From: Escherichia phage vB_EcoM_G2494
Sequence record: MK327935.1
DNA: 64,000 nt
Reading direction: 5' to 3' (one strand)
Made by a program: the position numbers and the translations under genes. The notes beneath the pieces are model-generated. The model was not told the origin of the DNA, ran no database searches, and was given only the letters and a program-made list of their open reading frames with translations. Of this stretch, positions 20,230 to 21,062 are shown one piece after another (the first letter of the stretch is position 1; each line of letters begins with the position of its first letter).

Positions 20230-20565
20230 TTATCCTTTCTTAAACAAATTGCGAAGCCAGTATACAAACGGGATTTCTTTAAACTTGAACTTGTCAATAG
20301 TTAATTCTTTAGTAGCAAGATGAATATCATAAGCATCATGTGTAACTATATGCCATTTTCTATAGTCCAAATGTGAACAACCGTCTGGATCTAGGTTAAT
20401 AAGAGTTTCTCGCTCACTAGGATTATTTTTCCACAATTTTGTAATAGGATCGCACATAATTCGACCTAGCGTACCATGAATAATCTCACAACGGTAAAGT
20501 TTTCCAGCAGTGAGATAGGCGCACCCGTCATAGTCGGTATAAACAAACACTTCTTTAACACTCAT
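20230..20565 (-). CDS. hypothetical small protein (family with GCSHLD...W motif)
   Basis: ORF track 111 aa. Confidence 0.5.
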   Translation of the reverse strand: MSVKEVFVYTDYDGCAYLTAGKLYRCEIIHGTLGRIMCDPITKLWKNNPSERETLINLDPDGCSHLDYRKWHIVTHDAYDIHLATKELTIDKFKFKEIPFVYWLRNLFKKG

Positions 20566-20596
20566 TTTAATACTCCTTTGTTGTTTCGATGGGGGT

Positions 20597-20625
20597 ATAT
20601 TACTACCCCCGTTTCATGCTGTCAA
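20597..20625 (-). promoter_or_regulatory. sigma70-like early promoter (TTGACA-17-TAATAT) with embedded hairpin
   Basis: Minus strand TTGACAgcatgaaacgggggtagTAATAT; inverted repeat gggggta...taccccc. Confidence 0.55.
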
Positions 20626-20886
20626 CTACTTTTTCAAGAATTTTTTTAGCACATTCCAAAGACCTTTATTCTCAGGTTGTTTTGGTTCTTCGATCAGTGT
20701 CCAGGTTCGACCGTCTAAGTGTGCACAATTTTTAAGACAAATAAAAATCTGGTGTCCCTTATCATCACGGATATAACCACTATTCGCAAATCTTTCATGT
20801 GGTGTATATTCATACAGTGTATTTGGTGTAATATACTTGCGGTTACTATAAGGTGTCATCACATACATCATGGTACTAACTCCCAT
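20626..20886 (-). CDS. hypothetical small protein (paralog, CAHLDGRTW motif)
   Basis: ORF track 86 aa. Confidence 0.45.
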   Translation of the reverse strand: MGVSTMMYVMTPYSNRKYITPNTLYEYTPHERFANSGYIRDDKGHQIFICLKNCAHLDGRTWTLIEEPKQPENKGLWNVLKKFLKK

Positions 20887-21062
20887 TTATCACCGCGAAG
20901 ATGAGAACATCCACCATCAAGAAGGATCGTAATACGATAACCTATATCATCTTTGATGTAACCGATTGTCGGTGGATTTTCGTAGTCTCGTGTCGGGGTA
21001 AAATCATACATCTTTCCTGGCGTAATATCTTGTCCTTTATTGCTATTGGTATAAACTTTCAT
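20868..21062 (-). CDS. hypothetical small protein (paralog, GCSHLRGDKW motif)
   Basis: ORF track 64 aa. Confidence 0.45.
   Translation of the reverse strand: MKVYTNSNKGQDITPGKMYDFTPTRDYENPPTIGYIKDDIGYRITILLDGGCSHLRGDKWELVP

What the first reader, a model, noticed from the sequence alone, without database searches (positions are those of the whole stretch)
20230..21062. Three tandem small paralogs with a conserved C-x-H-L-(D/R)-x-(R/D)-x-W motif
ORFs 20230-20565, 20626-20886 and 20868-21062 each carry ...DGCSHLDYRKW..., ...NCAHLDGRTW... or ...GGCSHLRGDKW... after a Tyr/Pro-rich N-region. This is a small duplicated family of unknown function with a possible Cys/His metal site.
Basis: seen in the sequence. 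Interest (0 to 1): 0.4.

Follow-up and report, generated by a model that had tools for sequence, protein, structure and literature searches.

The report
Three paralogous small phage β-barrel genes
Three neighbouring early genes of an RB49-like coliphage are real, diverged copies of one small β-barrel protein; the domain is widespread in phages and has no known function, and the suspected Cys/His metal site is probably only part of the fold.

Summary
Three minus-strand ORFs (111, 81 and 64 aa) between regB and nrdC.11 of a Krischvirus (RB49/JSE-like) phage are true paralogs, and the C-x-H-L-x4-W motif aligns in register. It occurs 3 times in the window against 0.06 expected by chance.

They belong to a phage-specific ~60-aa domain family: PHROG 6261/15978, no Pfam family, and 389 representative clusters at 50% identity. 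The domain occurs alone, with added C-terminal parts, or repeated inside one protein.

The metal-site idea is not supported. Only Tyr and Trp are near-invariant. Cys or His is missing in 26% of domains, His is replaced by Phe, Tyr or Trp, and 45% of domains hold fewer than four Cys+His.

The genes are under purifying selection but their proteins change faster than their neighbours'. A PeSL early-promoter cassette separates gene 2 from gene 1, and natural variants show recombination and loss.

The likely role is an early accessory protein-binding module. That is inferred, not shown.

The parts
20868..21062 (-). Gene 3 (64 aa): the bare β-barrel domain, with no extension. Its Shine-Dalgarno sequence AGGAG lies 21 nt after the nrdC.11 stop.
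   Evidence: ORF. phrog_6261 E 1e-27. AF2 model pLDDT 84, six β-strands. dN/dS 0.26 over 8 orthologues.
20626..20871 (-). Gene 2 (81 aa from the ATG at 20871; an alternative in-frame ATG at 20886 gives 86 aa): the domain plus a short basic amphipathic C-terminal tail. Its start overlaps the gene 3 stop (ATGA), so the two are probably translationally coupled.
   Evidence: phrog_15978 E 6.5e-59, aligned from residue 6. 81-aa form in databases. dN/dS 0.16.
20230..20565 (-). Gene 1 (111 aa): the domain with a ~17-residue insertion in the variable loop, plus a ~35-residue C-terminal extension predicted as two helices. It ends 4 nt before regB.
   Evidence: phrog_6261 E 1e-37. AF2 model pLDDT 77.6 with helices at 76-90 and 99-109, the tail at low confidence. 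dN/dS 0.135.
20566..20625 (-). PeSL-type intergenic cassette in front of gene 1. It has an AT-rich upstream stretch, a -35 TTGACA (20625-20620), and a stem-loop GGGGGTA/TACCCCC (20610-20591) that overlaps the -10 TAATAT (20602-20597). The Shine-Dalgarno AAGGAG follows, with its GGAG at 20576-20573.
   Evidence: Promoter scan. RNA fold -15.1 kcal/mol, z -2.2. Repeated at 28440-28522 (85% identity) and 8174-8244 (79%). Matches the published PeSL description for RB49/phi1 (PMC2839356).
20883..20909 (-). Motif CSHLRGDKW of gene 3 (residues 52-60): strand β5, a turn, and the start of β6.
20701..20727 (-). Motif CAHLDGRTW of gene 2 (residues 49-57 in the 81-aa numbering).
20353..20379 (-). Motif CSHLDYRKW of gene 1 (residues 63-71).
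20629..20667 (-). Gene 2 C-terminal tail KGLWNVLKKFLKK: basic and strongly amphipathic if helical.
   Evidence: Hydrophobic moment 0.74 against a median of 0.26 for windows in the same protein. A role in membrane binding or oligomerisation is inference only.
20233..20292 (-). Gene 1 C-terminal tail KFKFKEIPFVYWLRNLFKKG. It is identical in the otherwise 41%-identical allele found in a Hadza gut metagenome phage.
   Evidence: hydrophobic moment 0.65. AF2 helix 99-109 at low confidence.

Best explanation
SHOWN:
- The three ORFs are real protein-coding genes. They are diverged tandem paralogs of one phage-specific ~60-aa domain with consensus MKVKTDYxGCxYITAGKxYEv...IxDDxGdxIxIxLxxCAHLdGxxWEVVE.
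- They lie in the early, hyperplastic regB-nrdC.11 interval of a Krischvirus (RB49/JSE-like T4-type coliphage).
- The domain is predicted to fold as a small six-stranded all-β barrel. Its closest solved structure is Gp54 of phage Bas11, followed by SH3/Tudor-type barrels.
- The conserved residues (TxGK-x-Y, DDxG, C-x-H-L, W) lie in β-turns and strands.
- The stretch between the invariant Tyr and DDxG is the most variable part, at 8-30 residues.
- Gene 3 and gene 2 overlap by ATGA. Gene 1 has its own PeSL early promoter and is followed directly by regB.

INFERRED:
- The proteins are made early in infection as non-essential accessory factors.
- The barrel is a stable scaffold that binds a host or phage protein through its variable loop and surface. 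Duplication and divergence then give three specificities.
- The basic amphipathic C-terminal helices of genes 2 and 1 may tether them to the membrane or to a partner.
- The Cys-x-His pair serves packing of strand β5, not metal binding.
- The actual target and the benefit to the phage (host takeover or counter-defence) are unknown.
For: Paralogy.

Phage identity and conserved locus: 58 Krischvirus records at 90-99% nucleotide identity, with the gene order regB-g1-g2-g3-nrdC.11.

Real genes: dN/dS is 0.26, 0.16 and 0.135. Protein change is faster than in the flanks, with dN 0.055, 0.092 and 0.015 against 0.004 for nrdC.11 and 0.007 for regB.

Family breadth:
- 389 representatives at E<=1e-3. Most are 58-72 aa; some carry C-terminal extensions or 2-3 domains per protein.
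- 80 of 83 sampled members hit phrog_6261.
- Every genomic context examined is phage-like: Vibrio phage helene 12B3, contigs with phage RNA polymerase/NinX, terminase, or DnaB+Dam, and phage Bas11.

Non-essential and plastic:
- Gene 3 is disrupted in phage FL04.
- A gene 3/gene 2 hybrid replaces the pair in contig L009.
- A 41%-identical allele of gene 1 occurs in a Hadza gut phage.
- T4 carries unrelated genes at this slot.

Not a nucleic-acid binder: median domain pI 4.68 and net charge -5.

Variable loop.

Early promoter cassette.
Against: - No partner, phenotype or expression data exist for any family member (literature searches).
- Model coordinates could not be inspected, so whether Cys/His face the core or the surface is reasoned only from the alternation pattern.
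- The high conservation of Cys (92%) and His (82%) could still reflect a functional site in most members.
- The membrane-tether idea rests only on hydrophobic moment.
Confidence: 0.45

Rival explanations
1. One reading: the C-x-H motif, perhaps with ligands from a second subunit or from the N-terminal loop Cys, forms a structural or catalytic metal site. The proteins would then be small metalloproteins.
For: Cys is present in 155/169 domains and His in 139/169, two residues apart on one β-strand and so on the same face. No domain lacks both. A second Cys in the β1-β2 loop occurs in 62/169 domains, including gene 1.
Against: - 44/169 domains lack either Cys or His. His is replaced by Phe/Tyr/Trp and Cys by Ser, which are not metal ligands.
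- 45% of domains have fewer than 4 Cys+His. Gene 3 has only one of each.
- Orthologues of gene 2 carry CAYLD.
- There is no match to any zinc-binding Pfam family.
Confidence: 0.1
2. The barrels bind nucleic acid, as Tudor/KOW/Sm-like/SH3-like domains of many nucleic-acid proteins do. They would modulate early transcription or mRNA fate. Their position next to the RegB endoribonuclease gene might reflect a shared pathway.
Against: - The family is acidic overall: median pI 4.68, net charge -5, and 77% of domains below pI 5.5.
- The positive charge of gene 2 sits in its tail, not in the barrel.
- The linkage to regB is specific to Krischvirus. Members in other phages sit among unrelated small genes.
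Confidence: 0.12
3. Genes 2 and 1 are peripheral membrane proteins, tethered by a C-terminal amphipathic helix. They would act at the envelope, for example in superinfection exclusion, lysis timing, or interference with a membrane defence or host complex. Gene 3 would be a soluble partner or regulator.
For: The tails LWNVLKKFLKK and FVYWLRNLFKK have hydrophobic moments of 0.74 and 0.65 with net positive charge. That is at least as amphipathic as the E. coli FtsA and MinD membrane-targeting sequences computed the same way. Similar tails recur in unrelated family members P0027, P0059 and P0087. The gene 1 tail is identical across alleles that are only 41% identical in the core.
Against: - This is purely compositional, and the AF2 confidence for the tail is low, pLDDT ~50-60.
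- Such helices also mediate protein-protein contacts.
- JSE has a different C-terminus on gene 2.
- The tail of gene 1 may be conserved at the DNA level because it abuts the regB start or marks a recombination boundary.
Confidence: 0.2
4. The ORFs are decaying or non-functional duplicates kept only as spacer DNA in a hyperplastic region.
For: Gene 3 is disrupted in FL04. Hybrids and allele swaps occur. The ORFs are annotated only as hypothetical proteins.
Against: All three have dN/dS of 0.13-0.26. They stay intact, with Shine-Dalgarno sequences, in 57 of 58 records. The family profile is conserved across very distant phages.
Confidence: 0.03

Closest known systems
PHROG families phrog_6261 and phrog_15978 (phage proteins of unknown function)
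   Same: Direct sequence membership: all three genes hit phrog_6261, and genes 2 and 3 also hit phrog_15978. 80 of 83 distant relatives hit phrog_6261.
   Different: These are only clusters, with no function, structure or name attached. There is no Pfam or NCBIfam counterpart.
Gp54 of Escherichia phage Bas11 (PDB 9AXB; Pfam PF25180). It triggers the CapRelSJ46 toxin-antitoxin defence (PMC11578894).
   Same: - Size is similar (64-66 aa), and it is a six-stranded barrel with a long β1-β2 loop.
- It is also a small, non-essential phage protein of unknown function.
- There is a local sequence resemblance: GxxItIxLxxxxCxHxxGxxWxV.
   Different: - No significant sequence homology: hhalign probability 9%, no PF25180 hit, and the family HMM misses Gp54.
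- Bas11 carries separate true members of this family (gp78, gp79), distinct from Gp54.
- Whether these proteins trigger CapRel is untested.
SH3 / Tudor-type small β-barrels (protein- or nucleic-acid-binding adaptor domains)
   Different: No SH3, Tudor or other barrel Pfam model is matched by the three genes, and among 83 relatives there is only one weak hit each. This fold has six strands rather than five. No proline-peptide-binding signature was shown.
PeSL + ORFan cassettes of RB49/phi1-type phages (Arbiol et al. 2010, PMC2839356; PMC4122927)
   Same: The gene 2/gene 1 intergenic sequence has every described PeSL part and is repeated in the window. The genes are small, of unknown function, and lie in a hyperplastic region.
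   Different: The paper does not mention this locus: no occurrence of regB or nrdC.11. Only gene 1 is directly preceded by a PeSL. These genes are also not true ORFans, because the family is widespread.
T4 vs.3 / vs.4 / vs.5 (small genes next to regB in T4)
   Same: They occupy the same map position next to regB, come as three small early genes of similar sizes (92, 88 and 58 aa), and have unknown function.
   Different: They are unrelated in sequence: no HMM hit, with scores around 0 bits.

Membership tests
phrog_6261 / phrog_15978 | Significant full-length match to the family profile | tested here: met
   phrog_6261: E 1.1e-37, 6e-6 and 1.1e-27. phrog_15978: E 6.5e-59 (gene 2) and 1.4e-8 (gene 3).
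Gp54(Bas11) family, Pfam PF25180 | Sequence match to the family profile | tested here: not met
   No Pfam hit at E<=10. hhalign of the two family profiles gives probability 9.4% over 25 columns. The family HMM does not hit the Gp54 ORF in Bas11.
Gp54(Bas11) family, Pfam PF25180 | Same fold: a six-stranded small β-barrel with a long β1-β2 loop | tested here: inconclusive
   [not shown]
Gp54(Bas11) family, Pfam PF25180 | Direct binding and activation of CapRelSJ46 | not testable with these tools
   Needs co-expression toxicity or binding assays as in PMC11578894.
Cys/His zinc-binding mini-proteins (zinc ribbon, treble clef and similar) | Three to four conserved Cys/His ligands positioned to bind one metal | tested here: not met
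   Only one Cys and one His are conserved. 26% of domains lack one of them, and 45% have fewer than 4 Cys+His. Substitutions are Ser, Phe, Tyr and Trp. Gene 3 has a single Cys and a single His.
Cys/His zinc-binding mini-proteins (zinc ribbon, treble clef and similar) | Bound metal in the purified protein | not testable with these tools
   Requires ICP-MS or a colorimetric assay.
VOC / FosA glutathione transferases (lead from NCBIfam) | Full-length paired βαβββ modules scoring above the family cut-off | tested here: not met
   Only a 21-residue local match (LWKNNPSERETLINLDPDG) in gene 1, scoring 12-19 bits against cut-offs of 180-305. That stretch falls in the insertion specific to gene 1. Genes 2 and 3 have no hit. 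In the AF2 model of gene 1 the core is β-strands, the matched stretch holds only two short helices (43-52) and no βαβββ module is present, and the gene 3 model is all-β.
SH3 domain superfamily | Five-stranded SH3 barrel recognised by an SH3-type profile | tested here: inconclusive
   [not shown]
PeSL regulatory cassette (for the 20566-20625 intergenic element) | Sigma-70 consensus -35/-10, an AT-rich upstream stretch, a polyG/polyC stem-loop, then a Shine-Dalgarno sequence and start codon; intergenic and repeated in the genome | tested here: met
   TTGACA-17-TAATAT. GGGGGTA/TACCCCC stem over the -10. Two further copies at 79-85% identity. Description in PMC2839356. Promoter and terminator activity were not tested.

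The most novel reading that the evidence does not exclude
This would be an unnamed, phage-wide domain family: at least 389 clusters at 50% identity, found in Straboviridae, Drexlerviridae, vibriophages and many uncultured phages. It would share the rare six-stranded barrel of the CapRel trigger Gp54. It would work as a modular host-targeting or counter-defence scaffold that also exposes phages to immune sensing. On this reading, tandem duplication (three copies here, two in Bas11), allele swapping and gene fusion are the traces of an arms race, and two of the three copies act at the membrane through amphipathic tails.
Probability: 0.2. Interest if true: 0.6.

Novelty: new member of a known kind. 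Interest (0 to 1): 0.33.

Why it matters
T4-type phages carry well over a hundred small early genes with no known role. They are now a main source of newly found anti-defence proteins and of triggers for bacterial immunity.

This work shows that the three 'hypothetical proteins' are copies of one domain. The domain is widespread in phages, lacks a Pfam entry, is modular, and most resembles the only solved small-protein trigger of CapRel.

That gives a concrete family-level target for deletion, toxicity, pull-down and defence-library experiments. It also removes a misleading metal-site annotation. On its own, however, this is an ordinary accessory-gene cluster in a well-sequenced phage genus.

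Tried and rejected
- Pfam, NCBIfam and PADLOC scans of the three proteins gave no family. The FosA hits in NCBIfam are a 21-residue local match inside the insertion specific to gene 1, far below cut-off, and were rejected.
- Profile searches of PDB sequences with two alignments gave only chance-level hits: RNA polymerase subunit N at E 0.028 and DPP4 at about 0.07-0.2.
- A Pfam scan of 83 relatives and 10 long multi-domain relatives gave only sub-threshold DUF6501 hits (7 of 83; best 23.1 bits against a cut-off of 23.8). No informative fused domain appeared. Whether DUF6501 is a remote relative was not resolved.
- Homology to Gp54 was tested by hhalign with a single sequence and with a 12-sequence Gp54 alignment. 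Probability was 9% both times, so it was not accepted.
- Homology to T4 vs.3, vs.4 and vs.5 was tested with two HMMs and found absent.
- A search for a fourth copy in the window found none.
- Literature searches for locus tags, PHROG ids, PF25180 and DUF6501 found nothing relevant.
- The coordinates of the AF2 models are not exposed by the tools, so burial of Cys/His and surface conservation could not be mapped.

Full report
**1. What is there**

The window is a Krischvirus, an RB49/JSE/phi1-like T4-type coliphage. The 2-kb stretch around the finding is 90-99% identical to 58 phage records, all of that group.

They lie between regB (19803-20225) and nrdC.11 (21084-21782). The same order, regB / 111 aa / 81 aa / 64 aa / nrdC.11, appears in JSE, RB49, Makalu_001, JK32, Cognac and Skers, and in metagenomic relatives. 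In every record they are annotated only as hypothetical proteins. Two records wrongly carry the RegB label over onto gene 1.

**2. Is the repeat real?**

Yes. The proteins align in register over the whole ~60-residue core, with 11 invariant columns.
- BLASTP gives E 2e-13 for gene 2 vs gene 3, 8e-5 for gene 1 vs gene 3, and 2e-3 for gene 1 vs gene 2.
- All three hit the same PHROG profile.
- The pattern C.HL.{4}W occurs three times in 64,244 residues of six-frame ORFs, only here, against 0.06 expected.
- Family HMMs find no further copy in the window.

The middle gene most probably starts at 20871, giving 81 aa. That ATG overlaps the TGA of gene 3 (ATGA) and follows a GGGAG. The databases and most annotations use that start.

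**3. Are they genes?**

I computed Nei-Gojobori estimates over 8-10 orthologous loci.

| Gene | dN/dS | dN |
|---|---|---|
| gene 3 | 0.26 | 0.055 |
| gene 2 | 0.16 | 0.092 |
| gene 1 | 0.135 | 0.015 |
| nrdC.11 | 0.04 | 0.004 |
| regB | 0.03 | 0.007 |

All three are under purifying selection, but their proteins change 2-20 times faster than those of the neighbouring genes.

The locus is plastic:
- Phage FL04 has a disrupted gene 3.
- One metagenomic contig has a single gene 3/gene 2 hybrid in place of the pair.
- A Hadza gut phage carries a gene 1 allele that is only 41% identical in the core but has an identical C-terminal tail.
- JSE has an altered gene 2 C-terminus.
- T4 has three unrelated small genes (vs.3, vs.4, vs.5) in the same slot.

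**4. Regulation**

The 60-nt gap between gene 2 and gene 1 contains, in order:
- an AT-rich stretch;
- a -35 TTGACA, a 17-nt spacer and a -10 TAATAT;
- a GGGGGTA/TACCCCC stem-loop lying over the -10;
- the Shine-Dalgarno sequence AAGGAG and the ATG.

The element recurs at 28440-28522 (85% identity) and 8174-8244 (79%). It fits the published description of PeSLs, the promoter-early stem-loop cassettes that mediate shuffling of small genes in RB49/phi1 (PMC2839356). That paper does not discuss this locus.

Gene 3 follows nrdC.11 by 21 nt. Upstream of nrdC.11 lie a terminator hairpin and a promoter-like site. The likely units are therefore nrdC.11-g3-g2 and g1-regB, both early. This is an inference from sequence, not from expression data.

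All three genes carry GGAG in their Shine-Dalgarno sequence. From established T4 biology, GGAG is the RegB cleavage motif, and the RB49 record notes the same.

**5. The family is large and phage-specific**

A word-indexed search found only close Krischvirus relatives. An exhaustive profile search found 389 representative clusters at E<=1e-3.
- Most members are 58-72 aa.
- Some carry varied C-terminal extensions.
- Five of the 165 retrieved proteins contain two or three copies of the domain in one chain.
- 80 of 83 sampled members hit phrog_6261.
- None has a Pfam family, apart from sub-threshold DUF6501 hits.

Every context examined is phage-like: Vibrio phage helene 12B3; a contig with phage RNA polymerase and NinX; one with terminase; and one with DnaB and Dam. 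Phage Bas11 has two adjacent members, gp78 and gp79. Tandem duplication of this domain is therefore recurrent.

**6. Conservation and the metal-site idea**

Counts are from 169 aligned domains.

| Residue or motif | Domains with it |
|---|---|
| Tyr | 169 |
| Trp | 168 |
| Lys of TxGK | 155 |
| DDxG (second Asp / Gly) | 147 / 149 |
| Cys | 155 (Ser in 12) |
| His | 139 (Phe 12, Tyr 9, Trp 3) |

- Cys and His are lost independently: both present in 125 domains, Cys only in 30, His only in 14.
- 45% of domains have fewer than four Cys+His.
- Gene 3 has one Cys and one His.
- Gene 2 orthologues in JK32 and Skers read CAYLD.

This does not fit a conserved metal site. The substitutions suggest a small residue and an aromatic-like residue packing on one face of strand β5. 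I could not inspect the model coordinates, so that last point is inference.

The segment between the invariant Tyr and DDxG varies from 8 to 30 residues and is the least conserved in sequence. Gene 1 has its ~17-residue insertion there.

**7. Fold**

The AF2 model of gene 3 has pLDDT 84 and pTM 0.70. It shows six β-strands and a long β1-β2 loop. The gene 1 model has pLDDT 77.6: the same core plus helices at 76-90 and 99-109, with the tail at low confidence.

Sequence homology is not established:
- hhalign gives 9% probability, although the local match GxxItIxLxxxxCxHxxGxxWxV is striking.
- PF25180, which marks all Gp54 homologues, is not hit.

I therefore file this as 'same fold class, closest to Gp54', not as a family member. 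BFVD hits are all uncharacterised phage proteins.

**8. What it most likely does**

The following are shown:
- expression signals of early type;
- dispensability in at least one natural isolate;
- rapid protein evolution under purifying selection;
- modular use of the domain;
- acidic character, with median pI 4.68;
- a scaffold-like conservation pattern with one hypervariable loop.

From these I infer that the proteins are early accessory factors. Their barrel would bind a host or phage protein, and the three copies would have diverged in specificity.

Genes 2 and 1 end in basic amphipathic segments with hydrophobic moments of 0.74 and 0.65. These may tether them to the membrane or to a partner. 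The target and the benefit to the phage are unknown.

Rival readings and my estimates:

| Reading | Estimate |
|---|---|
| Metalloprotein | 0.10 |
| Nucleic-acid binder | 0.12 |
| Acting at the membrane (a refinement rather than an exclusive rival) | 0.20 |
| Junk ORFs | 0.03 |

**9. Verdict**

The 'duplicated family of unknown function' reading is right. The metal-site reading is not supported.

The cluster is an ordinary example of hyperplastic-region accessory genes in a well-sequenced phage genus. Two useful additions come out of this work:
- the domain is a widespread phage family that Pfam does not name;
- its nearest solved structure is the CapRel trigger Gp54.

Interest is modest, at 0.33.

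Noticed in passing
window 28440-28522 and 8174-8244 (minus strand): Two more copies of the PeSL-type element (TTGACA, a polyG/polyC stem-loop over the -10, Shine-Dalgarno, ATG). They are 85% and 79% identical to the one in front of gene 1, and each sits directly in front of another small ORF.
   Followed up: partly
window 21783-21868: The window has only 86 bp between nrdC.11 and vs.6, holding a terminator hairpin AAGCCAA..TTGGCTT with a T-run and an overlapping promoter-like site. JSE, JK32, FL04 and the Hadza contig carry an HNH homing-endonuclease gene there, so this is a presence/absence polymorphism.
   Followed up: partly
L002 (phage Bas11) 47025-47219 and 47216-47653; also 37578-37943: Bas11, the phage that encodes Gp54, also carries two adjacent true members of this family: gp78 (E 1.6e-12, motif SIHIGGKDW) and gp79 (E 2.5e-4, with no Cys or His). 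gp48 gives a weaker hit. Gp54 itself is not detected by the family HMM.
   Followed up: partly
L009 45-296; L012 1501-1681; L003 4001-4312; L001 4804-5073: Natural variants of the locus: a gene 3/gene 2 hybrid (83 aa); a disrupted gene 3 in FL04; a 41%-identical gene 1 allele with an identical C-terminal tail; and a changed gene 2 C-terminus in JSE.
   Followed up: partly
L016 (T4) 2801-3558: T4 has three unrelated, apparently helical small genes (vs.3, vs.4, vs.5) in the slot next to regB. They are positional analogues, not homologues.
   Followed up: yes
proteins P0093, P0110, P0116, P0132, P0145, P0152: A subset of family members fuses the N-terminal barrel to a conserved C-terminal module with the motif TPKTWGEMTDAEKGALLLAxHEGKxIE...YRIKPEP. 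The three tested (P0116, P0132, P0145) had no Pfam match. Other subsets carry ...AIAIAKHFKLTAEDL or a Cys/His-rich ...ETHRGGxIWEICxxCGxKWADDEGGKP tail.
   Followed up: no
window 20573-20576, about 20880-20884, and 21070-21073 (minus strand): All three genes have GGAG inside their Shine-Dalgarno sequence, which is the RegB cleavage motif. regB itself has AAGGA without GGAG.
   Followed up: no
window 21869-22285 and 18288-18743: Neighbouring genes are a GrcA-like autonomous glycyl-radical cofactor (vs.6) and a macro-domain protein (tk.4), as annotated in related phages.
   Followed up: no
window 20230-20565, residues 43-63 of gene 1: A weak local resemblance to the FosA/VOC 'DPDG' strand (NCBIfam, 12-19 bits). 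It falls in the insertion specific to gene 1 and I judged it to be chance.
   Followed up: yes
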